DNA of 64,000 nt. Origin: a virus. Lineage: Duplodnaviria > Caudoviricetes. How positions within the stretch are numbered: position 1 is the first letter of the stretch; every line of letters starts with the position of its first letter. The notes beneath the pieces were generated by a model. The model was not told the DNA's origin, made no database searches, and saw only the letters and a list, made by a program, of their open reading frames with translations. Location of the stretch: IMG/VR virus record IMGVR_UViG_3300031992_000042, positions 32,001 through 96,000 of that record; one strand, written 5' to 3'. Shown here piece after piece: positions 10,501 to 61,830 of the stretch. The translations under genes and the position numbers were made by a program.

Positions 10501-13500
10501 TTTTAAGAATTTTGGCACCCTGACCAAGAGCAATCATTGCTGGATTAGCTCTTCTTTCAAGCTGGTCTAACCCTTCATTTATCCTATCGTATTCATTTTT
10601 GGAATATTGACCTTCATTATACTGGTTACCAACTTGCTTTCTAAGAGTATTTATCTCTTGTTTTCTTGCGGCTGAAATAACAGATAAAGAATTTTTACTC
10701 TTTAAGCCTTGTTTTATCTGTAATGACTCTAAAGCCAGTCTGCCAGCCGTCTCGTTTTGTGTTGTGTATTCAGCTGCTAAACTTGCTCTAGCATCTTGAG
10801 CATTTGCAATACGTTGGTTAGCGACTTTAATAGCATCTTCGTATTGCTTTTGGTATGCAGAATCAACCAAACCTTTATCAAGACGGTTTTGCATCCACGT
10901 AATACCATTTTGCTGCTTGGATATTCTTTCATCATATTTATTTAGTGTCTCTTTTTGTTTGCTTAAACCAAAACCGTTTAATTCTTTTGTAATATCATCT
11001 TCAAGCTGTTTAGCATCAAGCATTATTCCGTTTGTAAAACTTTTATGCATGTTTTCAGTAACTTTATCTCTTGCTTGTGCTATCTGAGACATCCAAGCCG
11101 AACGTTGATCTTCTAAATCTTTTGTTCCTGTAAAAGCTGCATCAGATGCAAGTTCTTCTTCAAGAGCGTTTAAGGGTTGTAAATTTTCAAAAGTACGATA
11201 TTGTAAATAATTATATTGACGTTCTGCCAATGTCTTTTCATCATTTAATTTATTCTCTTTTCCTCTTTGCTCTCTCCAAAGTTCGTCCCCATAGGTTCTT
11301 GTGTCTGATAATATCTGGTTAAACCTATTTCCTACTTCTAAAGCATGTTCATATTTACTTAAATCTGCAAGAACTTTTTCTCTTTGTTCTGTTTGCTCTG
11401 CTTTTTTAGGCGTTTGCGGTCCCCATATCGCGTCAGCACTTTCAGACTGGTTTGTAGACGTCCCGCCTTGAATAGGCATACTTGCAGAACCCGAAGCTTT
11501 TGGATTTTCAACATAAACCAAATTGCCAGTATTTTTATCTTCATAAACAATATTGCCTTTTTCATCTCTGATGATATTATTGTTAGCAACAATTGCAGTT
11601 TCTGGTTTTGCAGGTTCTTTCGGTTGTTCTGGTTCTTTAAATGCCTCAGCCTGTTTGCGAAGCTCAACAACTTTTGATACAAGTGTTTGTCCTACAGCAT
11701 CTGTTGCATTTACAAAATTAGTTCTAAAGTCATCGCCATATGTACGAACAAGATCGCTTTCAAGCATACCGAATTGATCTATGGCGTTTCTTGCAGTTCT
11801 AATACCATATCTGGCTTCTTGTGCTTTAGCCCACTGCTCTTTAGTGTCATAGGCTTTATCGCCTAACATGAATTTACCAGTAGTTGGATCTCTATAATCA
11901 TCTGCAGCTAACGTCAATTCAGCAGCAGCAGCATTTATTAAGCCTTGAATATATTGACCTTCATCATTTGTAATATAAGCTCTCTCGCCTGTGCCAAATT
12001 GATGATGAAGCATACGCATCGTCTGCATCAGTTTGATGCGTTCAGGACCAGCATCACCATATCCGAGCTGTTTATCCATTGCTTCATATATAGCATCCAT
12101 TTGAGTGGGATCAACATTGCCTGTGCGATAAAGCTGGTTTGCTTGAGCAATAGCCATCATATGGTTTGACATATATCTAGAAGGCAAGTTAATTTCATCG
12201 ATGCCCATATCTCTAAGGGCTCTTAAATTGATATATTCTCCATTGGATGCTTTATATATATCTGGATGACTCGCATCTATATACGTACCTTCACGAGTTT
12301 TTACAGCGTTTTTACGATCTGGGGATACGATCATGTCTTCGTCAAACTTAAACAGATCTGTACGCTTTTCTGAGAATTTAGTATATTCTTTACCTAAACC
12401 TAAAGCAGCCCAAACAGGATCATCTTTTTCTAAAGTATAAGTTTGTGCTTTTTTAGGAGTAGAACCAATATCATATATACCTGCCATTCTCTGAGCCGCA
12501 TATACAAGCGCTTGGTTTTCTGGTCTTGAATAGTCGACCTGCATTATTCTGATACCAGAAGAACCTGTACCCATTGGCATAGTCGCATACAAATTGCGTT
12601 CTGCTTGAAGTCTATTTTGAACAGACCAGCTCTTTAATTGTTCTGGCGTATATACAATATCTTCACCTTTAACATCCGAGTCTTTGTATGCACCCATTCG
12701 TTTTAAAGAAGCTTGTACCGCATCGGCAAGTTCTTTATCGTAAATTGCTTTTACTTGGTCTGCATCGTAGTCCATGCCTTGAAGAATTCGTCTATCTTTT
12801 TCAGAAACATACATTCCTGTAGAAGTTGATATGCCAAATCCTTTATAAATAGGTTCTGCGTCAGCTGCCAAATTCTGCGCATAGTACATATTGCCGTATC
12901 CAGTAGGAGAGCGAACAACCGCTACATTGGCTTGATCTTTTCTGTTAAAGTCAAGCACTTTACCTTGCGGTAAAATGATCATATCTCGAATATCTTGGTC
13001 GGATAATCGAGCGTTTGCTTCTTTGTCTAAATATGAGCGAGCTTTCGCAATAGACGCATCTGGAACAGTCCCATCTTTAGCCAACAATATCGTCGCTAAA
13101 GGGCTTGCTGCAGCGCGAAGGTTTGCAATTTTGTCATCGTTGTCAAAGTTGATATATTTACCAGCAATTAAGTCGTTGTAAAGAGAAGCTCGCATATTAT
13201 CAATTCGTGAACGAGCTTCTGTTGACGCTAATAACTGTGAATTGCCACCGAATAAAGGATTAACCTTTCGACTTAGATAGTCTTCTTTATTGCCGAATAC
13301 ATATTTCAACTGACCTTCTTCGGTATCAAGTTCTTGCATTCGCCTCATTGCCATTTCAATTTGATGTTGTCTTAATTCAGGAGAAAACATCATAAAAGAC
13401 GACATCTGAGTACCTAAGTTATCTGAAGCAACTTGATCTAAGTCATAGTCAGCATGATAACTCATAGGATGACGCTGTAATAATGCGGTGAACCTTCTAC

Positions 13501-32990: not shown

Positions 32991-35414
32991 ATGAAAATGA
33001 TCCAGAAGCTAAACCTTATCGAAAATAAGGTTGACACCATCTCTCTGTTCACGTCAGCGTTCACAGACAAACTCGATGCTATGAGCATCGATCCCAAAGA
33101 CGCAATCGTCAAGATTTGCGCAGAGTGCCCTAAGAACGATGAAGCAGAAGCTATTGTCAAGGCTACACTTGCGAACTATTGCGCCGAAGGTTATCTCCTC
33201 GGAGAGAACATTTACGATGCATTTTGCGCTGGTGCTAGCGATGCTCGTAAAGCTACAGCTACTTGGCTTCGGCACGATCTCGTTCCTGAACTTGGCAAGT
33301 GGGCTATGTGTGGGTTGAACACCAAGAACATGAAACTCGCTATTAACAAGTACATGGCATACATCGGATTGCTGTTCTCTGCAAGCAAGCCTTTCGTCGA
33401 TGTTTTCGGCAAGAAGATTGACATTCGTCGTGTCGCTGTTATCAAAGATACAGATGTTGTCGTTAACGCAGTTGCAGATCTTGTGACGATGGAATCTGTG
33501 TCTCGTAAGGTTAATCGCGAGATGGTTATCAATGCATTTGATGGATGTGGAATCCATCGCTATGAACTTACAAACGGCGAAGCTTGCACTTTAAGAGACG
33601 CTTGGATGAAGATCTGCAGTTTCCCTGTAAAGTGGAGTAAACTGTTTGGTTTCTGCTGCGACCGTGGCATCAAAGCTACGTTTGTAGACTTCTGGGGTAA
33701 TGAGATCGCTCTGAAAGACGTGGATCTTATTATCACGGAGTCTTGCTTCAAAACAATTAAACTGTATGAATCTTGGGAGCAGTATTGCAGCGCTCACGAA
33801 GCTCTTGGACATGAAATCCGTGTCTGCGTACGGGAGCACGCTCCGAAGCTGAAGGGACTTCCTTATCAGCAAGGTCAGACTCTGATGGGTAACGAAGACG
33901 ACGCAATGTCCTTCGCTATGCATGCCAAGAAAACGGTGTACAAGTATCATGACATAGCTGGCGCACCGAAACTCCTCCGTGGCGCTCATCAGCAGGCTGC
34001 AAAGATGTATCCTGCGCTGATGACTGAAGGTCATACTAAACGGGCAATGCAGGAAATGTACACAACCAAACGTAACGATATGCTCGGCGGACGTATCCCT
34101 GAGCTTGGTTACAATGCGTTTCTCGCTCCTGATCCGGTTGCATTTGCAGAGCATCTGTTCGGACTGGAAATCAAAGGCTTCCTGAAAGCAGGAGAATGCT
34201 ATTGCTCGAACTGCAAGGAAGGTCTCGTTGATGTGACTCGGTCTCCGCACCTGGACAACGCACATGTCCTTCTGAACAACGTGACTGAATGCCCGCTGGC
34301 AGAAGGTCCTACGATGTTCATCAACATCTTCGACACAACTACTATTCAGCTTCGTGCTGACTATGATGGCGATCATGTATGGTACAGCCAAGACGAACAT
34401 CTGCTTCGACTGGTTGAAGAAACCTACGAAAAGCTGAACAATATTCCTGTTGATTGGGATGTTGCTAAAACAGATAAAGTCCAGATCACCAAGTCTGGAG
34501 TTGCGAACTTCATCATCAACCTGATCCACGGATCTGAAATCGGCTTGTATGCCGATGCTCTGACTAAGATGTGGAATCAAGCTTACGATCAGGACGTCTG
34601 TGATTGGTTAACTTATGCAGCTAACGTTCTTATCGATGCTGCAAAGCATGCGACTGTGAAGATTAAGAAACCTGATGCGGTTGTCGAACTGAACAAGGTT
34701 TCTCTTCCGCTGTTTGCAATGTATGCCAAAGCGGATGCTGACCGTCCTGTCGGTGACTATTGGCTGAAAGAGCGCAAAGTCATGACTCGTCGCGGAGAAG
34801 AAGTAAATCTGCCTCCCCGTTGTGCTTATTCTGGATCTTTCTTGGATATGTATTCTAAGAAGGTGCAAGAGAACGTGACTGAAACGCTGACAGTCGAAGG
34901 ACTGGATAACGAAATCTTCGACGTCACCAAGATGATGTTCGACGCGCATCGCAAGATCGGCAAACTGTCTGGTCTGTCCAAAAAGGGCGTTTACAACGAA
35001 CAGACTGGCAAGTTCAACGACTGTGGTCTCTTCCAAGAGATTGCCTTTCGGCACAGCACCGAATGGAACAAACTGGTAGGAGAAACTTCCTTCTTTGCTC
35101 ATCGCCGTGAGTGGGAAGAAGAAGTTGCGAAAGCTGCCCGCAAGGAGATCATCGACTGGGCTCGTGCTCAGTACGAAAATACTTCTGACATCTCCGATGA
35201 ACGCATTGAAGATGCTTGCTATGACATAATTGTCCGTAACATTTACGGTACAAAGATGAGTGATGGCATGGACACTGTAATCAAACAGGCGTTCTGGAGA
35301 ATCTATGGAGATAAGGCTGTGAAGGCTCTGAAGCAGAACCTGAACGAGTCTATCCCGGACTTCGATGACGAAGAGTTTGAAGAGCTCTTCGATGTAAGTG
35401 ACTGCGATTGCTAA
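32991..35414 (+). CDS. Single-chain two-barrel RNA polymerase (YonO-like), copy 1
   Basis: AFDGCG...LR, VTRSPHL, catalytic ADYDGD, IDAAKH; AGGAGG RBS. Confidence 0.85.
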   Translation: MKMIQKLNLIENKVDTISLFTSAFTDKLDAMSIDPKDAIVKICAECPKNDEAEAIVKATLANYCAEGYLLGENIYDAFCAGASDARKATATWLRHDLVPELGKWAMCGLNTKNMKLAINKYMAYIGLLFSASKPFVDVFGKKIDIRRVAVIKDTDVVVNAVADLVTMESVSRKVNREMVINAFDGCGIHRYELTNGEACTLRDAWMKICSFPVKWSKLFGFCCDRGIKATFVDFWGNEIALKDVDLIITESCFKTIKLYESWEQYCSAHEALGHEIRVCVREHAPKLKGLPYQQGQTLMGNEDDAMSFAMHAKKTVYKYHDIAGAPKLLRGAHQQAAKMYPALMTEGHTKRAMQEMYTTKRNDMLGGRIPELGYNAFLAPDPVAFAEHLFGLEIKGFLKAGECYCSNCKEGLVDVTRSPHLDNAHVLLNNVTECPLAEGPTMFINIFDTTTIQLRADYDGDHVWYSQDEHLLRLVEETYEKLNNIPVDWDVAKTDKVQITKSGVANFIINLIHGSEIGLYADALTKMWNQAYDQDVCDWLTYAANVLIDAAKHATVKIKKPDAVVELNKVSLPLFAMYAKADADRPVGDYWLKERKVMTRRGEEVNLPPRCAYSGSFLDMYSKKVQENVTETLTVEGLDNEIFDVTKMMFDAHRKIGKLSGLSKKGVYNEQTGKFNDCGLFQEIAFRHSTEWNKLVGETSFFAHRREWEEEVAKAARKEIIDWARAQYENTSDISDERIEDACYDIIVRNIYGTKMSDGMDTVIKQAFWRIYGDKAVKALKQNLNESIPDFDDEEFEELFDVSDCDC

Positions 35415-43666: not shown

Positions 43667-44452
43667 ATGGAGTTTCGAGATAAGTATGCGTTTTTAAGTA
43701 ATATGTATTCCTGTCCTATTCATTATAAAGGAGAAACTTTTCCTTGTATAGAAACTGCTTTTCAATGGGAAAAATGTGCAGATGTCAACGAACAAGAGAA
43801 GTTCATAAATAATAAAGGCTATTTTGTAAACGGATTTGTTGCACGTAAACTTGGTCGGCAGGTAAAACTAAGAGACGACTGGAAGTATGCACGACTGACT
43901 GTTATGTATGACCTTCTTGAAGAGAAATTTTGTCGCAATGAAAAACTTCGACAAGCACTAAAAGATACAGGAAATATTTGGATTCAGGAAGACAATGACT
44001 GGGGCGATACATTCTGGGGTGTTTGCAATGGCGTAGGAGAAAATATGCTAGGCAAAATGATAATGGAAATACGTCAGAATATTCAAGACTGCGATAGAGA
44101 CGTCAAGAAAGTTATTGTCGCAGGAAGTAGAAATTTTAAAGATTATAAATTGCTCTGTAAACGACTGGATTATTATTTTTCTAATATTCAACCGATTATT
44201 ATTTGCGGTGAAGCTCGAGGCGCAGATACCTTAGGCAGAAAATACGCAGAAGAACATAATTACTTAATTGAATCTTATCCTGCTGATTGGTCAAAAGGCA
44301 GAGATGCAGGATATATAAGAAATAAAAGAATGGCAGAAGTTGCAGATTGTGCAATATGCTTTTGGAATGGAAAATCTAAAGGGACAGAACACATGATCGA
44401 TACAATGAAGAAACTGAATAAACCTGTAAAGGTGGTGAAATTTGTTGATTAA
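43667..44452 (+). CDS. NADAR (YbiA-like) domain fused to a SLOG (YspA/DUF2493-like) domain
   Basis: FLSNMY...E..FQ..K...R.DW...KF...D.FWG...G.N.LG; then VIVAGSR...GEARGAD..G...RN..M...FWNGKSKGT.HM. Confidence 0.85.
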   Translation: MEFRDKYAFLSNMYSCPIHYKGETFPCIETAFQWEKCADVNEQEKFINNKGYFVNGFVARKLGRQVKLRDDWKYARLTVMYDLLEEKFCRNEKLRQALKDTGNIWIQEDNDWGDTFWGVCNGVGENMLGKMIMEIRQNIQDCDRDVKKVIVAGSRNFKDYKLLCKRLDYYFSNIQPIIICGEARGADTLGRKYAEEHNYLIESYPADWSKGRDAGYIRNKRMAEVADCAICFWNGKSKGTEHMIDTMKKLNKPVKVVKFVD

Positions 44453-45425: not shown

Positions 45426-46211
45426 ATGGCTAACACAAAGAAAATTAAAGTTGAAGTTGAAAACAACGAAGGTAAAACTGAAGTTATGGAGCTTCCTGAG
45501 CGAGCAACAGAGCGAATTGAGATTAAGAAAGTTCCTGTTGAAAAAGTTCGTGTAAAGATTGTTGGAGATACTCCGCTTCTTGTTCATGCATGGTCTGAAA
45601 AAGTTAAGAAACAGCTTTTGACTGATATGCAGATGTCAAAGCGTGAAAAGAAAGAAAAAGAACACGAGAAGAAAGATCCGTTTGCGGATTTTGTTGAAGC
45701 TGCATACTGGATTACTCCTATGCCCCAGGTTCGTGGACTTCCGTTTGAAGAACAGGTTAAATTGTTTGAAAAAGCAATCGAAGATGGAGCTAAATTTGGA
45801 TTTCCCACAATTGCGTTTAAGAAAGCTGCTATTACTGCTTGTTATAGCGCAGGATATATTAAGAGTACAGCTCTTATGCGCAGGCTGTTCCATGTTAACG
45901 CTGTGAATGGTGCGCATGTTGGCTCTTCTCAGGAACTGGCAATTATCGATATTGAAGAACCGCCGGAATTGTCTGAAGACGTTGTAAAAGTTGGTCCTTT
46001 CAATAATCGTGTACCTGATCTTCGTTATCGTCCTTCTTTCCGTAAATGGTCTGTTGAACTTGAACTGAGCCTTATCAAGACAGGTATGTTTACACTTGAA
46101 GATATTGTTAATGCCGTTGATATGGGCGGATTTATGAATGGCGTCGGTGAATGGCGCACAGAGAAAGACGGAGAATTTGGTAATTATCATGTTTACAGGG
46201 AGGGTGAGTAA
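45426..46211 (+). CDS. Stand-alone Cas7/RAMP-like RNA-binding protein, probable effector of the downstream pentamer array
   Basis: N-terminal strand VKIVGDTPLLVH; FP..AFKKA helix (compare IPGSSLKGA in RAMPs); thumb-like DLRYRP.F..W; C-terminal G-rich loop GGFMNGVGEWR.EKDGEFG; strong RBS and codon bias. Confidence 0.75.
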   Translation: MANTKKIKVEVENNEGKTEVMELPERATERIEIKKVPVEKVRVKIVGDTPLLVHAWSEKVKKQLLTDMQMSKREKKEKEHEKKDPFADFVEAAYWITPMPQVRGLPFEEQVKLFEKAIEDGAKFGFPTIAFKKAAITACYSAGYIKSTALMRRLFHVNAVNGAHVGSSQELAIIDIEEPPELSEDVVKVGPFNNRVPDLRYRPSFRKWSVELELSLIKTGMFTLEDIVNAVDMGGFMNGVGEWRTEKDGEFGNYHVYREGE

Positions 46212-46212
46212 T

Positions 46213-46497
46213 ATGAATATTAATGAAATAGTTGATTATCTGCTTAATATAAAATTTGAAGGTTTAATTGATGCTCCTTATATTGAAATTGGGAAAAATA
46301 ATAACAATCAATATACCGCAGAATTAAGTAATGTTTGGGTTCTGTCTGACGACGAAGAAAGCATGGCTGGCGAGTATGGAGTTGGATCAACAGTCGAAGA
46401 AGCATTATCAAACTATATTGCCATAATTAAAGGGAAAACGCTTATTATTCAAGATGAACTTGAAGAAGAAAAAGAATATACAGCATTTGTTAGTTGA
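46213..46497 (+). CDS. Acidic hypothetical protein within the RAMP/array locus
   Basis: GGAGGG RBS before MNINE. Confidence 0.55.
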   Translation: MNINEIVDYLLNIKFEGLIDAPYIEIGKNNNNQYTAELSNVWVLSDDEESMAGEYGVGSTVEEALSNYIAIIKGKTLIIQDELEEEKEYTAFVS

Positions 46498-46511
46498 CGA
46501 GGTGAATAAAT

Positions 46512-47006
46512 ATGGGTCAAGCGTTTGAATATAAGTATCGAGTAAGCGGCATTGTTAAAGCTCCTGCAGAAATAACTGGCAGAGTCTGCAAAAGCTTAAT
46601 CGATGAAGATGGTGCAGTAACGCCTGAAAGACTCGTTGAGGTTAGTAAGCCTAAAGATGCTCCGCTTCATAACGAATTTGAATGGAATAACACAATTGCA
46701 GCGCAGAAATATCGTGAAGAACAAGCACGTCAAATTATCAAGAATATTGTAATAATGGAAGTTTCAGAAGAAATTGGTGAGCCTAAACAAGTTAAATGTT
46801 GGGTTAACAGTGATCGTGCTTTTGTTCCTACTGATGAAAGACTACATCGGTATGTCACAATTGATACGGCTTTAAGCACAGAAGCATGGCGTAAGAATCT
46901 TCTTAAAGCTGCAAGAAGAGATATGACATCGTTTATTGCTAAATATAGACGACTGACTGAATTAAGTAAAATTATCGATGATATGAACGATTTCCTTGGA
47001 GCCTAA
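46512..47006 (+). CDS. Hypothetical protein, probable accessory gene of the RAMP/array locus
   Basis: G.VTPE.LV..S.P...PLH..FEW.N..AA..YR..QAR.II motif; lies directly upstream of the array. Confidence 0.65.
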   Translation: MGQAFEYKYRVSGIVKAPAEITGRVCKSLIDEDGAVTPERLVEVSKPKDAPLHNEFEWNNTIAAQKYREEQARQIIKNIVIMEVSEEIGEPKQVKCWVNSDRAFVPTDERLHRYVTIDTALSTEAWRKNLLKAARRDMTSFIAKYRRLTELSKIIDDMNDFLGA

Positions 47007-47062
47007 GAGCTAAGAGGCGCTGTAAGATCTCTCGAAGTGGATGAAAAGTCTGAACATGGTTA

Positions 47063-47750
47063 GGCAGCCTGGGTGGGGTCGGTATAGGCGCGTACAGGTG
47101 CGTTGGGTTATGTTAGGGCAGTCAAGGTTAGTTGCGGCTCGAACGGGTTAGTACGGGTGTGTTATGCCAAGGCAGTCATGGTGGCGCGAGATAGGTTACG
47201 TTGAGAACGGGTTTGTTTAGCAGTGGCAGTCGTGGAATGTAAAGGCACGTTAAGTTGTGTAGGGGATAGCATAGGCAGTCGTGGTACGCTTAGTTTCGTA
47301 TGGACTAGTTGTGCAATGGCAGTCACGGTGGGTTGAGTAATGTTACGGCAGGGACAGGCTTGGTTAGTTCTGGCAGTCTAGGTTAGTAATGTTGCGTAGT
47401 GGTTCGTTTAGTACGGGCGGCGTATGGCAGTCTAGGTGTGGACAGGAGGCGGTTTGTCTGTGTTGGTTCCGTTACGGCAGTCGAGGTTAGTTCCGTTATG
47501 TTACGTACAGGTGGGCTATGGCAGTCATGGTGAGCTGTGTTAGCGAGAGGCGTGGTCTGGTTGCGTCGAGGCAGTCAAGGTCAGGTAATGCCTGGTCGGT
47601 CGGGTTACGTTATGATTTGTTGGCGTAAGGGTCGGCAGTCGGGGTGTGTACCGGAGTGTTAACGTCCGACACGTTATGTTCGGGCTGTCTAGGCAAGATA
47701 AGGTATCGTATGCTGAGTTGGGTACTGCTATGTCTTGTAGTGGCTGTCTA
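47063..47750 (+). repeat. 13-unit array of GGC(A/T) plus 8-12 G-initiated pentamers; putative guide RNA array, not a CRISPR
   Basis: Unit starts at 47063, 47117, 47171, 47225, 47274, 47318, 47372, 47426, 47476, 47520, 47570, 47634 and 47683, terminal motif at 47742; lengths 54, 54, 54, 49, 44, 54, 54, 50, 44, 50, 64, 49, 59. Confidence 0.92.
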
Positions 47751-47763
47751 AGAAATTCGCGCT

Positions 47764-47795
47764 GGGGAGACGCGAAGAAATATCTCCCCATTCTT
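47764..47795 (+). terminator. Hairpin closing the array transcript
   Basis: GGGAGA / TCTCCC stem followed by ATTCTT. Confidence 0.5.
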
Positions 47796-48192
47796 GTGGG
47801 ATAATATAAAACGATTTTATACTACTATGTTTAGTTATAAAAACTATCTATAACTACGTTTGTTCTGCTAAATAAAAAAGCTTAAAACTCTAATAATTTC
47901 AACGCCAACCGCAAGCGGTTGGCACTATACCGTGAACTCCTGGTACTTACCATCGGGCACCAGCGATCTACATATAATTTATAGAATATTCTAAGAAATA
48001 ATGTTTGATAAAATGAAAAGAATATTTCTGTAATTAAAAAGCAATTTCTCTGTAAAAGATGAAGGTGTGTCAGAGAAATAGCAAGCAAAATTTGACATTT
48101 TCTGTGCGATAACACCTCCTCGCACATGACCGAAAAGAGAGACTGGTGTATTGATGGGGCATCAGCCTCTCTTCTTTTTAAAGGAGATTTAC

Positions 48193-48690
48193 ATGAGATA
48201 CCTTGTTGTTGAAGAAGATGAAATTTATGATGATATCGACGAAGCAATAAAGCAATGTATTGAAGATGATTGGCATCGAGACGATGATTATTTTGAAGAA
48301 TGGGTTAATGACCGATATAATCCTGTTGAAATAAACGGTGAATGGTATAACCCATATGATATCTTGGATAATATGGACCAAGGTAATCTTGATGATCTTC
48401 GGGATGAATACTGTGAAAGTGAAAATGAAAATGACGGAGATGATGCTCGATATGAAATTGAACATGGAAGAATTGGCGACTTAATTACTGTTCATAACCA
48501 TACAATTGAAATTCTTGACGATGAAGACCTCGAAGAAATTAGTGATTACGATGGGGACGAACATCTTGAAACGATTGAAGATGTCCGTGCTCGGTTAAAA
48601 CAAGAAAATGAATTTAAAGTCGAGCAAACTATACAGACAGAAAAAGAAGAAAAAGATCTTATGAATATGTTTCAGATAGTAGGTGAGTAA
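48193..48690 (+). CDS. Very acidic hypothetical protein (possible DNA mimic)
   Basis: AAGGAG RBS before MRYLVV; high D/E content. Confidence 0.6.
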   Translation: MRYLVVEEDEIYDDIDEAIKQCIEDDWHRDDDYFEEWVNDRYNPVEINGEWYNPYDILDNMDQGNLDDLRDEYCESENENDGDDARYEIEHGRIGDLITVHNHTIEILDDEDLEEISDYDGDEHLETIEDVRARLKQENEFKVEQTIQTEKEEKDLMNMFQIVGE

Positions 48691-49063
48691 TATGGGTTAC
48701 TATACAGATTATACACTTACGGTCCGCAAAATAAAAAACGAAGAAGAGTTTAATAAACTGAATGAATATCTAAAAGAAAAAGAGATTATTAATTATGCTA
48801 TCCAAGAAGGCGACTACGATCCGAACCATCAAGAAGCGGTTTTCTATCCTTATGACAGTGTCAAATGGTATGATCATTCAGAAGCAATGGTAGGGATTGC
48901 AGAAAAATTTCCTAAAATGTATTTCGAACTTGAAGGCGCAGGAGAAGTATCTGGGGACTTCTGGAAAGAATATTATCACGATATGGACATAGAATATTGT
49001 CGTGGTGAAGTTGTTTACGAACAGCCAAAGAAAGTAGCTTGGCAAGACTTGCTTGTGATATAA
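48683..49063 (+). CDS. Hypothetical phage protein (MGYYT.Y...KWY...GE..GD.W)
   Basis: ORF with RBS. Confidence 0.6.
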   Translation: MSNMGYYTDYTLTVRKIKNEEEFNKLNEYLKEKEIINYAIQEGDYDPNHQEAVFYPYDSVKWYDHSEAMVGIAEKFPKMYFELEGAGEVSGDFWKEYYHDMDIEYCRGEVVYEQPKKVAWQDLLVI

Positions 49064-56330: not shown

Positions 56331-56850
56331 AAAGTCCATCAACTTCGGTTGGACTGTTTATGTTATAAATAGTAACGCTTTGCCCGGTAGGAGACGACGG
56401 GCCAAATGCCCAGACGGCTGGAGGTGCTGCACTGCTTACTGCTGAAAGAGGCAAATCAAATTAGAAAACCTATAAAATAACTAATTTACACCTATTCAAT
56501 TGAAGAAATTCACTTGAATCAACCATAAAGTCGCCTGGGAAAAGAAGACTGAATCTTAATTTAGTTTATAAACAAAAGAGTATTAAAAATATCATATAAA
56601 GACCTTCAACTTATGTTGGACAATTTATGTTATAAGTTGTAACTCTTTGCCGGGGAATAGTGAAACGACGCGGGCATGTCTGAAGAACATTCCACTCCCG
56701 AAATCATCGTAGAACAAAATGAACTGCTACTATACAAACTGAAAATTAAAATATTCAGTATTAACAGAACCATTAAGATAAATAGACCAATACGACGGAC
56801 GTCAAGAAACTCCCTGGGATCTCCTAATTTAGTTTATATGATACAAGAAA
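56331..56850 (+). ncRNA. Two tandem ~270-nt units with conserved ends upstream of the RT (putative msr-msd-like RNAs)
   Basis: Both units share TCAACTT..GTTGGAC..TTTATGTTATAA.T.GTAAC.CTTTGCC.GG, ACGACG, CCTGGGA and TAATTTAGTTTATA; middles are divergent. Confidence 0.6.
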
Positions 56851-56861
56851 AGGAAGTAAAA

Positions 56862-58004
56862 ATGATTTATATTACAACAATGCAGCATAGGAAGCCAAGG
56901 CAATTATCTTGGGAAGATGTCATTATGGAAAAAGAAATTTTTAATGATTTTACTAATGACAAGTCTTCATCTACTGCAACAATTACAAGAAAATACGAAG
57001 AAGTAAAAGAAGAAGTTCTTAACAGAATTAACGTAGATGCTATGATTAGATGGCTAAAACAGTTTAATGATTCGAATAAAGAACTGTTTGAAGCAGATCG
57101 TAAGTCTCTGTATTCGTCGTTTAAGATTCCGAAAACGACTGGTGGATTCAGGCAAATTGATGCTCCTTGTGAGAAATTGCAAGACGAATTACAACGATTG
57201 GTACATTTCATTGGGGATGATTGCGGTGTGCTGTATCATACTGCTGCGTTCGCCTATGTAAAAGGCAGAAGTATTGTTGACTGCATAAGGAAACATCAGA
57301 AGAATGAATCTATGTGGTTTCTGAAAACAGACTTTAGTGGGTTTTTTCCAAATACTACTTTGAATTTTACAATGAAAATGTTGTCGATGGTATTTCCACT
57401 GTCTGAAGTATGTAAAAGAGAAGATGGATATAAAGAATTAGAAAAAGCAATCAGCCTTGGATTCTTGAACGGTGGACTTCCTCAAGGAACTGTGTTGTCT
57501 CCGATGCTTACAAACATTTTTATGATTCCGATTGATCATAAATTGTTTAATGAATTGGCGGATCGACACATTGTTTATACACGATACGCTGATGATATTC
57601 ATATTTCAGCTCAGGAAAAATTTCCTTGGCAAGAAATTGTTAAATTGATTGAAGATACGCTAAAAGAATTTAATGCGCCTTGGGTAATTAAGAAAGAAAA
57701 GACACATTTTGGTAGTAGAAAAGGTCGCAACTGGTCATTAGGATTAATGCTGAACAGTGATAATAATATAACTGTTGGATGGAAGAAGAAACAATATTTC
57801 AAGGCTGCGCTATGTTCGTTTATTCTTGATACAAAGAATGGCAAACATTGGGATATTGGAGATGTTCAACATCTTCGTGGTCAATTGTCCTATTATACAA
57901 TGGTTGAAAAAGATTATTTTAATAGCATTATAAAACAGCAAAATAAGAAATGGAATGTAAATGTAAACGATATGTTTAAAGCATATCTCAATGGAACTGT
58001 TTGA
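56862..58004 (+). CDS. Retron-like reverse transcriptase (380 aa)
   Basis: F.IPK..GG.R.I.AP, H..AFAY..GRS, KTDF..FF, LPQG..LSP, YTRYADD, KEKT; AAGGAAG RBS before MIYIT. Confidence 0.85.
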   Translation: MIYITTMQHRKPRQLSWEDVIMEKEIFNDFTNDKSSSTATITRKYEEVKEEVLNRINVDAMIRWLKQFNDSNKELFEADRKSLYSSFKIPKTTGGFRQIDAPCEKLQDELQRLVHFIGDDCGVLYHTAAFAYVKGRSIVDCIRKHQKNESMWFLKTDFSGFFPNTTLNFTMKMLSMVFPLSEVCKREDGYKELEKAISLGFLNGGLPQGTVLSPMLTNIFMIPIDHKLFNELADRHIVYTRYADDIHISAQEKFPWQEIVKLIEDTLKEFNAPWVIKKEKTHFGSRKGRNWSLGLMLNSDNNITVGWKKKQYFKAALCSFILDTKNGKHWDIGDVQHLRGQLSYYTMVEKDYFNSIIKQQNKKWNVNVNDMFKAYLNGTV

Positions 58005-58710: not shown

Positions 58711-58992
58711 AATAAAATGAAAGCACCATATAAAGACCTGCATCATATGACGATACTGGTGCTGCAGCAAGTTCACTCGTATTCTTTAAACAAACAGGAT
58801 GTAAGAATGCCCCATGTTGATTTAGAGACCACCAGATACGAGACTTATTGCTGTTGGAGCTGTTTATTATTACGGGTTGGGTTCGTATACCGACATAAAC
58901 AGCTCCTATTTTTTATTACAGAATTAGTAAATCTATCCTTTTGGATTAAATATACGTATCTTAAAAACAACAAAATGAAAGGGGGCCGCGAG

Positions 58993-61830
58993 ATGTCTGT
59001 AAAGACATACTTGCAAGAACAGATTCGTCTTGTATCTTTGTTAAGTAAAGACTTATACACAGATGAAGAAATGATTCTGTACAAAAAAATAATCGATCAG
59101 AAAAATATCCTAGATCTGATGGATGAGAAAGGAGCAGAAAAAGAAGAACGCAAAGCTGTAATCAACGAGAAAAATAAACTAAAAACACAGCTTGATAAGC
59201 TTATTCTTTCTCATGCAGATACGCCAAGAACTGTGAACTTAAAGTCTGTCATCTATTATCCCAAAGATGCAGACTATCCTTTTCCCGAAGGAGTAACTTA
59301 TCGAAGTTTAAAAACAAATAAAAAAATAGCTGAGTTTTGTTGCGAATTATCCCGCGCAATGGGACTTGAAAATTTAGACTGTACTCTTGATTTAATTGTA
59401 ATCAAATGGAAAAACATAGAGATTTTAAGACAACTAGTAGTTAATGGATTTTATATGCCAATTCTGAATAAAGATGGCACAGTAGAAAATAGACACTATC
59501 ATTTTTATACAGCCAGCAGCGGTCAGTTAAGGCGTGATAAGTTCATGGCAATATCTGACAGCACATGGAATAAAATTCATAATAAACTTGAATGCGGTAT
59601 TACTTGGGATGTTATCAACGCAAAAGGCGGGATAAACTCAAATAAGTTAAGTGCTTATGATGCGCTTCAAAATTCTGCAACTGAAGTATGGGAAGATTTT
59701 AATATAGATTCTGTAATTGTAGTCGATGATTATGAAGGCGAAGTTACTGATAGAATGATTTATATTAAACCTGATTATACGTTTGAAAAAGGAATACGTA
59801 CAGTAAAGATAACACATACAGACGGATGTGGAATGATGCTCCCTGAAATATCTGATTCGAATTTTATGATCAGAATACCGTATGGAAAAGGCTTATTAAT
59901 AGTATTTGACTTTATAAGATTCTGCAAAGAACATAATGTAGAACCTATAGTAACTGATATATATGGCAAACAATGGCATCTAATAAACGATAATATTAAA
60001 ATAATTCTGTTTAAAAGTATGTTTAAACTTTGGAAATATTTTAATAACTGGCAAGAGTATAAAGATGAATTCAAGAAGAACGAATGCCATTGCGGAAAAA
60101 CTAACTATGAAGAAGAATTCTTAGCAAATAAAACATTAAATTATCAAATGATAGATACGTTAACAGATTTTACGGATGAAGAAATTAAACAGTTTACAGA
60201 AAAAGAACATGAACGTATCGTTAAGCTCACAAAAGATAAAGATGCAATGCTTGACGTGTTGAAAGCAAATGAAAAAAGTGAGCAACCATATAAGGTTGCT
60301 CTTAAAATTTATCCAGAACTTTTACGTGAAGCTTATGCTCGACAATCTTTAATTGATATTCGTAAGCGAATGTTATTGGATGCTAAATCTGGAAAAATAA
60401 GGAGTTTAAATAAACGTTTATTTGCTTGTCCAGATCTATATGGCGTTTGTGAATGGCTGTTTTTACATGATGAACATCCTAAAGGATTACTAAAAAACGG
60501 AGAAGTTGCATGTAAAATATTTAGACGGCATGAAAAAGTAGACGTGCTTCGAAGTCCACATTTAGCGATGGAACATGGCGTACGAAATATCGTACAGAAT
60601 CAAAAAGTCTATGATTGGTTCTGTACAAATGGATTATATAGCTCGTTGCATGATTTATTAAGCAGATTGTTGCAATGCGACTGGGACGGGGATCAGCTGA
60701 ATGTTGTAGCCGATCCTTTATTTGTCGAAATTGCAGAAAGAAACATCAAGAAATATGACGTTGTACCGTTGTTTTACGAGATGGACAAGGCTCCGGCTGA
60801 AATAATAGACAGTAATACTATGTTCAACGCTTTAAAAAGAGCTCATGACTATTCTGCTGGAGAAATAACAAGTATAGGCGAGATATCTAATATGTTGACT
60901 CGTCTTTGGAATAAAGAAAATCCAGATAGAGATGTTGCTAATCTGCTTACAATGTTCAACAATTTAGTGATTGACGCAGCTAAGAACGGAAAAATAAACC
61001 ATTATAAGAATTATCCAAAGATAGCGAAAAGAATTGGCAAAGCTACCGGAGGTAAAAATGGTCGCATGCCTTACTGGTTTCAATTCTCAAAAAATGGCAG
61101 AAAAGATACGCCAGAAAATAGAAACCGTAAATATGCAGAACCCAATAATTCAACGATGAACCGAATATGTAAAGCATTTGACGATATTGGATATATAAAT
61201 CTAAACTATGCTGGCATTTCTCAGTTCAATTATCAAATGCTTATGTCTGCTCCATGCTATGATTCAAAACCTGAAATTTATCAGTTATTTTGCGAGCTTG
61301 ATAACTCGAATAAATCAAGTATTATTGCTTCGCAAGAAAATACTTATGCTTCAGAGAAGCAACTGATAAATAATTATAGTATAGTAGCGGAAGACATTAC
61401 AAACGAGATCATTCAAAGATATGGTTCATTGGAATATGCCTATCCATATATAGTAAAGTATCTTTTTGCAGGAGAAGGCATGGACAAATCTGCGCATAAA
61501 CAAATGTTCTGGCGTGTGTTTGGAGAAATTGCATTAAATAATCTTCGCAAGAATTTATCAGAATGTGATACGTGTAAAGATTGTTTTATAAAAATACCAG
61601 CATGGGTAGAAGACCATAACTGTATAAAAAATACAAAAGGTTTTTATGAATGCATAGACTGTCATGTTTTATGTGAACGAACTAATCCGAAGCAATGTCG
61701 TTGTACAGAATGCCAATCTGTGTATAAAACATTACAAAGACGGATAAAGCAAAGAGCCAAAAGAGAATTAAAGAAAGTAATTGAAGAACAACGTATTACG
61801 TCCTTGGGATCGTTCTTGAACAAGACGTAA
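58993..61830 (+). CDS. Single-chain two-barrel RNA polymerase (YonO-like), copy 2, with C-terminal Zn ribbons
   Basis: TASSGQLR, HTDGCGM...FMIR...KG, VLRSPHL, catalytic CDWDGD, IDAAK; C-terminal CxxC motifs. Confidence 0.9.
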   Translation: MSVKTYLQEQIRLVSLLSKDLYTDEEMILYKKIIDQKNILDLMDEKGAEKEERKAVINEKNKLKTQLDKLILSHADTPRTVNLKSVIYYPKDADYPFPEGVTYRSLKTNKKIAEFCCELSRAMGLENLDCTLDLIVIKWKNIEILRQLVVNGFYMPILNKDGTVENRHYHFYTASSGQLRRDKFMAISDSTWNKIHNKLECGITWDVINAKGGINSNKLSAYDALQNSATEVWEDFNIDSVIVVDDYEGEVTDRMIYIKPDYTFEKGIRTVKITHTDGCGMMLPEISDSNFMIRIPYGKGLLIVFDFIRFCKEHNVEPIVTDIYGKQWHLINDNIKIILFKSMFKLWKYFNNWQEYKDEFKKNECHCGKTNYEEEFLANKTLNYQMIDTLTDFTDEEIKQFTEKEHERIVKLTKDKDAMLDVLKANEKSEQPYKVALKIYPELLREAYARQSLIDIRKRMLLDAKSGKIRSLNKRLFACPDLYGVCEWLFLHDEHPKGLLKNGEVACKIFRRHEKVDVLRSPHLAMEHGVRNIVQNQKVYDWFCTNGLYSSLHDLLSRLLQCDWDGDQLNVVADPLFVEIAERNIKKYDVVPLFYEMDKAPAEIIDSNTMFNALKRAHDYSAGEITSIGEISNMLTRLWNKENPDRDVANLLTMFNNLVIDAAKNGKINHYKNYPKIAKRIGKATGGKNGRMPYWFQFSKNGRKDTPENRNRKYAEPNNSTMNRICKAFDDIGYINLNYAGISQFNYQMLMSAPCYDSKPEIYQLFCELDNSNKSSIIASQENTYASEKQLINNYSIVAEDITNEIIQRYGSLEYAYPYIVKYLFAGEGMDKSAHKQMFWRVFGEIALNNLRKNLSECDTCKDCFIKIPAWVEDHNCIKNTKGFYECIDCHVLCERTNPKQCRCTECQSVYKTLQRRIKQRAKRELKKVIEEQRITSLGSFLNKT

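What the first reader, a model, noticed from the sequence alone, without database searches (positions are those of the whole stretch)
45426..47795. Lone Cas7/RAMP-like gene plus a pentamer-periodic guide array: candidate RNA-guided system with a gapped code
Seen: 47063-47750 is non-coding, G/T-rich and made of 13 units that start with GGCAGTC (variants GGCAGCC, GGCTGTC). Each unit parses as GGCA plus n pentamers, so lengths are 4+5n (44, 49, 54, 59, 64); two units carry one extra base. Unit 2 reads ggca gtcaa ggtta gttgc ggctc gaacg ggtta gtacg ggtgt gttat gccaa. By my hand count 117 of 125 blocks start with G, and the 8 exceptions all start with YG. Positions 1-3 are mostly GGT/GTT/GTA/GGC/GTC while positions 4-5 vary freely and differ in every unit. 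Upstream on the same strand is a 261-aa protein with RAMP hallmarks and a 164-aa accessory gene. No cas1, cas2, cas3, cas5 or cas6 is present in this window. Knowledge: Cas7 subunits polymerise along guide RNA with a fixed nucleotide period. Inference: each unit is processed at GGCAG into a guide, one subunit binds each pentamer through the G-triplet, and the variable NN pairs together specify a 16-24 nt gapped target such as NN-x-NN-x, which would ignore codon wobble positions. Likely targets are rival phages, mobile elements or host defence genes. This resembles what I recall being reported as VIPR (alternating GGY/NN repeats); I cannot verify that here, and the triplet in this array is more degenerate (GTT/GTA-rich).
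Basis: partly seen in the sequence, partly recalled or inferred. Interest (0 to 1): 0.96.

Follow-up and report, generated by a model that had tools for sequence, protein, structure and literature searches.

The report
Phage VIPR guide array targeting rivals
An uncultured ruminant-gut phage carries a complete VIPR system (a lone Cas7-like protein, a helper gene and 13 pentamer-coded guide RNAs); three guides match genes of rival temperate phages under the published "read two bases, skip one" rule, so it is a well-supported new example of a system first described in 2026.

Summary
VIPR (Viral Interference Programmable Repeat) was described in 2026 preprints (10.64898/2026.04.26.720920, .720927, 2026.10.15.759431).

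- **Protein:** the 261-aa protein is a Vipr homologue. It matches SUSP1 Vipr (PDB 36pp) at E 3.5e-9 and hhalign probability 98.4%, has a Cas7-like fold, and keeps the RNA-contact residues.
- **Accessory gene:** a homologue of the 164-aa gene lies in 75 of 80 related loci.
- **Array association:** 78 of 80 related loci carry a same-strand period-5 G array.
- **Array anatomy:** 13 units spaced 5n-1 nt apart, joined by GGCAGYC. The scaffold triplet is relaxed to G-K-H rather than GGY, and there is no 3' tail. This fits the published "staggered" arrays.
- **Targets:** three of 13 guides have natural targets under the 1-nt skip rule.
  - Two guides hit conserved SNF2-helicase motifs of prophages in Clostridia/Christensenellales genomes.
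  - One guide has 76 exact IMG/VR hits in a probable rival RAMP (vipr-like) gene of ~40-kb temperate phages.
  - Skipped bases fall on codon wobble positions.
- **Controls:** skip 0, 2 and 3 and shuffled guides give no perfect matches.
- **Not tested:** transcription, processing, RNP formation and Vap function.

Verdict: a new member of a known kind. This scan's index lists the same stretch once more (e1-5844193, read from another window) and shows no example on other DNA.

The parts
45426..46211 (+). vipr: 261-aa lone RAMP/Cas7-like guide-binding protein, single copy in the record
   Evidence: phmmer to PDB 36pp_D 'SUSP1 Vipr protein' E 4e-6. Profile A1 gives E 3.5e-9. hhalign to SUSP1 Vipr gives prob 98.4%, E 9e-15 over 185 columns. 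AF2 pLDDT 86. Foldseek top hits are type VII Cas7, Csm3 and Cas7-11, prob 1.0. H54, R202, E242, W243 and R244 align to SUSP1 H17, R138, D177, W178 and R179 and are invariant in A1. Hits phrog_4652. One copy only.
46213..46497 (+). 94-aa ORF between vipr and vap; probably an inserted passenger gene, not part of the module
   Evidence: A homologue is found in only 1 of 80 related loci. No Pfam or PHROG hit.
46512..47006 (+). vap: 164-aa conserved Vipr-accessory protein of unknown fold with a long C-terminal helix
   Evidence: A homologue lies beside vipr in all 20 loci whose coordinates were listed, before or after the array, and is present in 75 of 80 loci overall. Hits phrog_15946. AF2 pLDDT 86. 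No fold match except coiled-coil helices. No similarity to SUSP1 Vap1.
47007..47062 (+). Conserved leader between the vap stop codon and the first junction
   Evidence: 83% mean identity across the window and L001-L004. RNAalifold predicts stems, 5 of 23 pairs with compensatory changes. The outer stem pairs the vap stop region with the first GGCAGCC. Only five sequences, so this is weak.
47063..47741 (+). vrRNA array: 13 guide units of 8-12 pentamers (G-K-H-N-N), each preceded by a 4-nt GGCA frame-break junction
   Evidence: The same junction and 5n-1 spacing occur across the clade. Two units (47426, 47476) are shared with relative L001 and the others differ.
47117..47170 (+). Guide unit 2 (NN: AA TA GC TC CG TA CG GT AT AA); targets an SNF2-helicase gene of Clostridia prophages, and also a gpA-type terminase
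   Evidence: 7 exact IMG/VR hits and 8 exact hits in bacterial genomes, 6 of them Clostridia/Christensenellales MAGs. The genes hit are phrog_62/SNF2 and phrog_675 TerL. The skip base is codon position 3.
47634..47682 (+). Guide unit 12; targets the same SNF2 helicase about 100 bp away (peptide RIVGLTGTP)
   Evidence: 17/18 match in G001, G002, G004 and in all 6 Clostridia MAG hits. The single mismatch (AA vs AG) corresponds to a TTR versus CTG leucine codon. The skip base is codon position 3.
47683..47741 (+). Guide unit 13 (22 specified nt); targets a ~200-aa probable RAMP (vipr-like) gene of ~40-kb temperate phages
   Evidence: 76 exact IMG/VR hits. All variation among them lies at every third (skip/wobble) position. 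The peptide is YKKIIDGLIFV, in the same sense as the guide. Evidence that the target gene is a RAMP: G-loop-like motif and weak Cas7/Csm4 hits, an Atlas cluster named RAMP, and adjacent period-5 tracts.
47742..47800 (+). Terminal junction copy (GGCTGTC) followed by a G+C-rich hairpin; probable end of the array transcript
   Evidence: Sequence read. An inverted repeat at 47756-47776 was scored as a terminator on the - strand. A similar hairpin follows the array in L002. Function is inferred.

Best explanation
This is a VIPR (Viral Interference Programmable Repeat) system carried by an uncultured, probably temperate, ~106-kb-plus phage of ruminant-gut Clostridia.

Proposed mechanism:
1. The array is transcribed from the + strand behind vipr and vap.
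2. Vipr protomers polymerise on the RNA, one per pentamer. They hold the G-K-H triplet through the conserved His/Arg/Glu-Trp-Arg contacts and expose the two variable bases.
3. The 4-nt GGCA junction breaks the 5-nt register between units, so it delimits 8-12-repeat guides. In the published wording this is a 'staggered', 1-nt-overlapping array with no 3' tail.
4. Each filament recognises double-stranded DNA reading NNxNNx..., with the skipped base usually on a codon wobble position. This most likely blocks transcription of the bound gene.
5. Known targets of this array are the replication/recombination SNF2 helicase of one family of Clostridia prophages (two guides) and an early gene, probably the vipr of a different VIPR system, of a second family of ~40-kb temperate phages (one guide).

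The system therefore serves inter-phage competition, either against resident prophages during infection or against superinfecting phages from the lysogen.

Shown here: homology, fold, conserved contact residues, array-gene linkage, the 1-nt skip rule and the targets.

Inferred from SUSP1 and P. fulva work: filament assembly, dsDNA binding, silencing and processing.
For: - **Homology and fold of Vipr:**. The contact residues named in 10.64898/2026.04.26.720927 are conserved.
- **Array anatomy and periodicity:**
- **Linkage:** 78 of 80 IMG/VR loci with a homologue carry a same-strand period-5 G tract, in nearly all cases just downstream of vipr. 75 of 80 have the vap homologue.
- **Skip-rule test 1:** 46 guides from the window and four close relatives were searched against four target-phage records. 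Skip 1 gave 6 perfect and 8 matches with <=1 mismatch. Skip 0, 2 and 3 gave 0. Shuffled guides gave 0 perfect and a mean of 0.15 with <=1 mismatch.
- **Skip-rule test 2:** of 2,112 unique 8-pentamer windows from 81 loci, 28 had perfect 16/16 matches under skip 1, against 0 for skip 0, 2 and 3.
- **Wobble placement:** the skip base is codon position 3 of the real gene at every mapped target whose covering gene I could assign.
- **Database hits:** exact hits for unit 2 numbered 7 (IMG/VR) plus 8 (genomes), and for unit 13 numbered 76. Five other window guides scanned exactly gave 0 hits, which is the background.
- **DNA rather than mRNA:** unit 13 has the same sense as its target mRNA, and targets occur on both strands.
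- **No self-target** in the phage's own record.
- **Phage context:** portal, terminase, capsid-like gene and integrase; the record is a virus record.
Against: - No expression, processing or binding data exist for this locus.
- No target was found for 10 of the 13 guides. Six of these were searched beyond the phage's own record and the four target records: five by exact IMG/VR scan and four of those also against five host MAGs.
- The scaffold triplet departs from the GGY that the SUSP1 structure explains: position 2 is G or T, and position 3 tolerates A.
- There is no 3' tail or pseudoknot, which in SUSP1 nucleates assembly.
- Vap has no recognisable DNA-binding or nuclease fold, so silencing versus cleavage is undecided.
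- Part of unit 2's hits fall in an unrelated terminase gene. This could be a second target or a chance match multiplied by four identical contigs.
- The carrier phage is 37% GC and the targets are 51-58% GC, so a shared host is inferred, not shown.
Confidence: 0.92

Rival explanations
1. The recognition module is the same VIPR, but the outcome is destruction or another Vap-mediated effect on the target DNA rather than a transcriptional roadblock. Vap would be the effector recruited by the filament.
For: Vap is present in 75 of 80 loci. Published types III-V pair Vipr with nucleases or helicases. In SUSP1, Vap1 is required in vivo. This Vap is unrelated to Vap1 and has no known fold, so its activity is open.
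Against: No nuclease, helicase or ATPase motif or fold was detected in Vap. It is small (164 aa) with a coiled-coil tail, which looks more like an adaptor or DNA-binding protein. Phage-borne types described so far silence.
Confidence: 0.15
2. The guides act on RNA (mRNA of rival phages) rather than on double-stranded DNA.
For: The nearest structural relatives are RNA-targeting Cas7 proteins of types III and VII. Units 2 and 12 are antisense to the helicase mRNA.
Against: Unit 13 and several relatives' guides have the same sense as the target mRNA and could not pair with it. Published VIPRs bind dsDNA on either strand.
Confidence: 0.04
3. The array is largely a decaying relic. Only a few units are functional and the relaxed G-K-H triplet reflects erosion rather than an altered binding specificity.
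For: No target was found for 10 of the 13 units. Two units carry +1 indels. Position 2 is only 41% G.
Against: The same relaxed composition recurs in four independent close relatives whose guide content differs, and G is still excluded from position 3. Guides with irregular pentamers, such as L001:7491 (22/22), still match targets perfectly. The frame-break spacing is kept in 11 of 13 units. Missing targets are expected when exact matching is used on incomplete databases.
Confidence: 0.05
4. It is not a guide array at all. It would be a chance G/T-rich repeat, a structural DNA element or a coding repeat next to an unrelated RAMP-like protein.
For: None beyond the absence of direct expression data.
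Against: A period of 5 is incompatible with coding, and no ORF spans the array. Linkage to the gene is conserved in 78 of 80 loci, on one strand only. Target matches are highly non-random.
Confidence: 0.01

Closest known systems
SUSP1 and Pseudomonas fulva prophage VIPR systems (type II; bioRxiv 10.64898/2026.04.26.720920, 10.64898/2026.04.26.720927, 10.64898/2026.10.15.759431)
   Same: A lone Vipr RAMP plus a small accessory gene plus pentamer-repeat guides on a phage. The G1, G2 and Y3 contact residues are conserved (His, Arg, Trp, Arg identical; Asp to Glu). Recognition follows the 1-nt skip rule with the skip on wobble positions. Targets are rival mobile elements, including another VIPR gene. 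There is no self-targeting.
   Different: Only ~29% identity over the aligned core. This protein is 261 aa against ~200, with an N-terminal extension (two strands, residues 6-24). The guides have no ~40-60-nt 3' pseudoknot tail and abut through a 4-nt GGCA junction. There are 13 guides rather than 4. The triplet is G-K-H, not GGY. The Y3-pocket residues differ (E71 to K112, C173 to N238, from the alignment). Vap is unrelated to Vap1.
'Staggered' vrRNA arrays with 1-nt overlaps, and alternative NNNGG/YNNNG/NNNNG repeats, described for other VIPR types (fig. S18 and Methods of 10.64898/2026.04.26.720920)
   Same: The 5n-1 spacing between junctions is exactly what n pentamers overlapping by one base would give. 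A G-only strict position fits the 'NNNNG' class.
   Different: The figures and type tables are not held, so I could not check which of the seven types this is, or whether the junction motif GGCAGYC and this Vap family are the ones shown there.
Non-canonical VIPR arrays found by entropy periodicity (bioRxiv 10.64898/2026.10.21.760802)
   Same: Period-5 arrays next to Vipr-like folds, with triplets other than GGY or degenerate at one position.
   Different: The motifs listed there (GAC, CAC, WGT, TGH) are not G-K-H. Here two triplet positions are relaxed, and relatives show a gradient from GGY to G-K-H.
Class 1 CRISPR-Cas Cas7 backbone (type III Csm3/Cmr4, type VII Cas7, Cas7-11)
   Same: The RRM/RAMP fold with a G-loop. 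The protein oligomerises along a guide with a fixed period and flips bases out periodically. These are the best structural matches.
   Different: There is no cas1, no repeat-spacer array and no Cas5/Cas6/large subunit nearby. The period is 5 nt with 2 read, not 6 nt with 5 read. The system is phage-borne. TM-scores are only 0.4-0.5.

Membership tests
VIPR system | Vipr protein homologous to characterised Vipr proteins | tested here: met
   PDB 36pp_D SUSP1 Vipr: phmmer E 4e-6 and profile E 3.5e-9. hhalign prob 98.4%, E 9e-15, 185 columns. A broad family HMM hits SUSP1 Vipr at 2e-18.
VIPR system | Minimal RAMP fold (RRM core, G-loop, thumb) | tested here: met
   AF2 pLDDT 86. Foldseek finds Cas7 of types VII and III and Cas7-11, prob 1.0, TM 0.4-0.5. 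The G-loop motif GVGEWR is invariant. The thumb was not delineated separately.
VIPR system | Residues that hold G1, G2 and Y3 of the repeat (SUSP1 H17, R138, D177, W178, R179) | tested here: met
   They align to H54, R202, E242, W243 and R244, all invariant in 36 homologues. D177 is replaced by Glu. The Y3-pocket residues E71 and C173 are not conserved.
VIPR system | Adjacent same-strand tandem pentamers with a fixed triplet and variable NN (GGY/NN or related consensus), 9-16 repeats per guide | tested here: met
   13 units of 8-12 pentamers. G1 is 91%, position 2 is K, position 3 is H, NN is near uniform. The consensus is relaxed relative to GGY, and distant relatives of the same clade keep GGY.
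VIPR system | Targets specified by NN with a one-nucleotide skip, skip on codon wobble, either strand, no self-target | tested here: met
   Skip 0, 2 and 3 and shuffled controls gave no perfect matches.
VIPR system | Conserved accessory gene (vap) in the locus | tested here: met
   The 164-aa homologue is present in 75 of 80 loci. It is not homologous to SUSP1 Vap1. Assignment to vap2-6 could not be tested.
VIPR system | vrRNAs are expressed, processed and co-purify with Vipr; the RNP binds dsDNA and represses | not testable with these tools
   No RNA-seq or biochemistry is available for this uncultured phage.
VIPR type II (SUSP1-like) | Each vrRNA ends in a conserved structured 3' tail or pseudoknot; vap1 is present | tested here: not met
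   Units abut with only a 4-7-nt constant junction. The array is no more structured than shuffles. Vap is not Vap1. It is therefore not type II.
CRISPR-Cas (class 1) | Repeat-spacer array plus adaptation genes and a multi-subunit effector | tested here: not met
   No Cas1 in the record. There is a single RAMP gene. The array has period 5 with 4-nt junctions, not 25-40-nt repeats.

The most novel reading that the evidence does not exclude
This clade may be a VIPR subtype not yet described. It would be defined by four features. First, a tail-less array in which a 4-nt GGCA frame-break, rather than a structured tail or ribozyme, phases and delimits the guides. Second, a Vipr whose altered Y3 pocket and Glu G-loop accept a relaxed G-K-H scaffold. 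Third, a Vap of new fold. Fourth, arrays from at least 15 related phages, many only 40-50% identical in Vipr, aimed at one family of Clostridia temperate phages. In this array the last guide would be an anti-VIPR guide against a rival phage's own vipr gene.
Probability: 0.3. Interest if true: 0.65.

Novelty: new member of a known kind. Interest (0 to 1): 0.5.

Why it matters
It extends the very recently described VIPR code, by computation only, to a divergent clade from anaerobic gut Firmicutes phages. The original work used E. coli and Pseudomonas systems.

- The 1-nt skip rule and wobble placement hold even where the scaffold triplet is relaxed to G-K-H and the guides lack a 3' tail.
- The locus supplies concrete natural targets: SNF2 helicase motifs, and a probable rival vipr gene with 76 exact hits.
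- It gives a testable idea of how tail-less arrays are phased.
- A Vipr that tolerates G/T at position 2 and A at position 3 could widen the design space of programmable VIPR guides.
- The targeting network is a handle on phage-phage competition in the rumen.

It does not reveal a new class of system.

Tried and rejected
- **Self-targeting:** none. The best scores equal shuffled guides.
- **Exact IMG/VR scans** of units 47063, 47171, 47318, 47372 and 47570 gave 0 hits. Unit 47318 in metagenome contigs also gave 0.
- **Host-MAG search:** four of these guides (47063, 47171, 47318, 47570), searched with 2-3 mismatches in five target-bearing host MAGs, gave nothing except one 2-mismatch hit that is probably chance. 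Units 47225, 47274, 47426, 47476 and 47520 were compared only with the phage's own record and the target records.
- **Junction as part of the guide:** the 'AG' of GGCAG does not extend the matches at the window guides' target sites (sequences).
- **crAss-like phage:** rejected. The terminase is only ~30% identical to Clostridium phage c-st and other Firmicutes phages, and there is no DNA similarity to any isolate.
- **Vap function:** Pfam, PDB sequence, Foldseek and VIA-align wide searches found no domain beyond a long helix.
- **Hammerhead or other ribozymes** between units: none found in Rfam.
- **Sigma-70 promoters** near the array: not enriched over shuffles.
- **Rival target ORF as a Vipr, by sequence alone:** only marginal (HMM E ~1e-3 per sequence, hhalign prob 6-25%). 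That reading rests on combined weak evidence.
- **VIPR type (I-VII):** could not be assigned, because the figures and supplementary tables are not held.
Full report
**1. The observation**

Window 47063-47750 (+) holds 14 copies of GGC[A/T]G[T/C]C that delimit 13 units of 54,54,54,49,44,54,54,50,44,50,64,49,59 nt. That is 4+5n, with two units one base longer.

Read as GGCA followed by pentamers, 114 of 125 pentamers begin with G, and the 11 exceptions begin with YG. Position 2 is T or G (46/41%). Position 3 is T, C or A (54/22/21%) and almost never G (2%). Positions 4-5 are close to uniform. The G autocorrelation peaks at every multiple of 5 and is flat in the neighbouring genes.

The tract is unique in the 105,695-bp record that holds the window. 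It has no long ORF and no Rfam match. Folded as RNA it is no more stable than shuffled sequence (z +0.28), as expected for a protein-coated single strand.

Everything else is as described.

**2. The genes**

ORF 45426-46211 (261 aa) has no Pfam domain but belongs to phrog_4652.

- It matches the PDB chain 36pp_D, 'SUSP1 Vipr protein', directly (E 4e-6). The match is better with a profile of 36 homologues (E 3.5e-9).
- Profile alignment with the SUSP1 gene taken from KT454805 covers 185 columns at 98.4% probability.
- The AlphaFold model (pLDDT 86) finds Cas7 subunits of type VII and III effectors and Cas7-11 as best solved structures (probability 1.0, TM 0.4-0.5).
- The residues that the cryo-EM paper names as holding G1, G2 and Y3 (H17, R138, D177, W178, R179) align with H54, R202, E242, W243 and R244. 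All are invariant in the alignment.
- The pocket residues said to exclude purines at Y3 are not conserved (E71 to K112, C173 to N238). This may relate to the A tolerated at position 3, but that is inference.
- The family is large: 3,908 representatives at 50% clustering.

ORF 46512-47006 (164 aa, phrog_15946) has a homologue in 75 of 80 related loci. In the loci whose coordinates I inspected it sits next to vipr, between vipr and the array or just after the array. Its model is confident (pLDDT 86), but no fold beyond a long C-terminal helix is recognised. It is not similar to SUSP1 Vap1.

The 94-aa ORF between the two genes is not conserved.

**3. Linkage and comparative anatomy**

Of 80 IMG/VR loci encoding a homologue, 78 have a period-5 G tract on the same strand, in nearly all cases downstream of the gene. 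There are almost none on the opposite strand.

The closest relatives (L001-L004, 70-92% identity) have the same leader, the same GGCAG[T/C]C junction and 5n-1 spacing. Their NN content differs, except for two units shared between the window and L001. The junction and spacing persist in relatives down to ~40% identity.

Those distant relatives keep a canonical GGY triplet (position 2 G 89-100%). The window's sub-clade has relaxed it to G-K-H while still excluding G at position 3.

The 5n-1 spacing is what the VIPR paper calls staggered arrays, in which neighbouring vrRNAs overlap by one base. Equivalently, the junction is a pentamer one base short, which breaks the register.

**4. What is already known**

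VIPR systems were reported in 2026. They consist of a lone ancestral RAMP (Vipr), an accessory gene (vap) and vrRNAs of GGY/NN pentamers. The NN bases pair with dsDNA while every third target base is skipped. Most are phage-borne and aimed at rival elements. There are seven types, including staggered and ribozyme-interspersed arrays and alternative repeat consensuses.

Structures show one protomer per repeat and an R-loop triplex. SUSP1 needs vipr and vap1 to beat its satellite, and some vrRNAs target other VIPR genes. A language-model survey also found non-canonical triplets. None of these papers mentions this phage group; a text search for crAss-type phages also found nothing.

**5. Test of the code on this locus**

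- The NN strings have no match in the phage's own genome beyond chance.
- Written as NNxNN..., unit 2 (47117) has 7 exact matches in IMG/VR and 8 in the bacterial genome collection. Six of the eight are Clostridia/Christensenellales MAGs from ruminants.
- Five other window guides scanned in the same way gave none, which sets the background.
- The unit 2 hits lie in an SNF2-type helicase (phrog_62) and, in four identical contigs, in a gpA-type terminase.
- I fetched four whole target records and scored 46 guides from the window and its four close relatives. With one skipped base, 6 guides match perfectly and 8 match with at most one mismatch. With 0, 2 or 3 skipped bases none do. Shuffling the order of dinucleotides gives 0 perfect matches and a mean of 0.15 with <=1 mismatch. 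One of the six perfect matches is the guide used to pick the records.
- The targets are the SNF2 helicase (window units 2 and 12, ~100 bp apart), a Gp2.5-like SSB, an amidoligase, a ParB-methyltransferase and a terminase. The skipped base is codon position 3 of the real gene at each mapped site whose gene I could assign.
- Unit 12 matches 17/18 in every helicase-bearing genome. Its single mismatch is the difference between TTR and CTG leucine codons in the motif RIVGLTGTP.
- A wider, anchor-free harvest of 2,112 unique 8-pentamer windows from 81 loci gives 28 perfect 16/16 matches to the target phages under skip 1 and none under skip 0, 2 or 3. The windows come from 16 loci, many only 40-50% identical in Vipr.

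**6. The last guide**

Unit 13 (47683; 22 specified bases) has 76 exact IMG/VR matches. All fall in one ~200-aa gene (peptide YKKIIDGLIFV), and every difference among the 76 sites lies at a skipped or wobble position.

The guide has the same sense as the mRNA, so it cannot act by pairing with that mRNA.

In L146 the gene sits just after the integrase/repressor/HTH switch, at the head of the early operon. The gene has no Pfam or PHROG match, but several weak lines point the same way:

- It ends in a G-loop-like motif (GIGQWR...GRF).
- It gives weak hits to Cas7 and Csm4 chains and marginal profile matches to the Vipr family.
- Its ESM Atlas cluster is auto-named a RAMP protein.
- In 38 of 76 loci there are period-5 G tracts, mostly a few hundred bases from the target site.

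I read it as a divergent vipr of a rival phage (about 75% likely), which would make unit 13 an anti-VIPR guide of the kind already reported for P. fulva and SUSP1 relatives.

**7. Context**

The record is a virus contig (CheckV 77% complete) with portal, terminase and capsid-like genes and a tyrosine integrase. It carries one vipr and no Cas1.

Its GC is 37% against 51-58% for the four fetched target records. A shared Clostridia host is inferred from where the targets reside and from the Firmicutes affinity of the terminase.

Earlier notes of this scan call it an SPbeta-like sheep-gut phage. I did not check that.

**8. Verdict**

It is a new member of a known, very recent class.

Features worth recording are a tail-less junction-phased array, a relaxed G-K-H scaffold, a Vap of unknown fold, and defined natural targets including a probable rival vipr.

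Transcription, processing at the junction, RNP assembly and the role of Vap remain untested.

Noticed in passing
L146:6924-8060 (IMG/VR 3300045988_028822) and 37 other loci among L123-L198: The ~40-kb temperate phages hit by unit 13 appear to carry their own VIPR-like locus. It has a ~200-aa RAMP-like gene followed by short runs of G-first pentamers (e.g. GCATC GATAA GCTAT GAGAG ...) interrupted by non-periodic, hairpin-rich stretches that resemble vrRNA tails. The protein family is very abundant: at least 8,000 clusters, some with thousands of members.
   Followed up: partly
L008, L013, L014, L029, L030, L037, L046, L049, L060, L077, L078 arrays against G001-G004: Guides from many distantly related Vipr-carrying phages (40-50% Vipr identity) have perfect skip-1 matches to the same 67-71-kb Clostridia (pro)phage family. 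That family therefore looks like a recurrent target of the whole clade.
   Followed up: partly
window 47426-47519 and L001:7643-7736: Two adjacent guide units are nearly identical between the window and its 92%-identical relative, while the other units differ. This suggests cassette-like gain and loss of guides within arrays. How new guides arise is unknown.
   Followed up: no
window 46995-47075: The end of the vap ORF (CCTTGGAGCCTAA) can pair with the first junction (TTAGGCAGCCTGG). A small hairpin in the leader shows compensatory changes among five relatives. This may be a regulatory or nucleation element.
   Followed up: partly
window 56676-58004, 32991-35414 and 58717-61830: A reverse-transcriptase gene (phrog_2825/1423) and two large phrog_8308 genes. 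Earlier notes of this scan read them as a retron-type RT and YonO-like RNA polymerases.
   Followed up: no
window 43667-44452: A 261-aa fusion of a NADAR domain and a YspA/SLOG (YAcAr) domain, about 1 kb upstream of vipr. Homologues occur near vipr in L002 and L004. It may be a counter-defence gene.
   Followed up: no
window 48683-49063: A 126-aa ORF with a weak RnlA-toxin-like N-terminus (PF15935, E 0.001) that belongs to phrog_6306.
   Followed up: no
window 1541-15589 (- strand): A giant 4,682-aa ORF. Other agents of this scan describe it as a tape-measure protein fused to an RNA polymerase.
   Followed up: no
G000:C1:5389-5898 (outside the window): A tyrosine integrase in the same record. 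The VIPR carrier is therefore probably temperate, and the array could act from the prophage state.
   Followed up: partly
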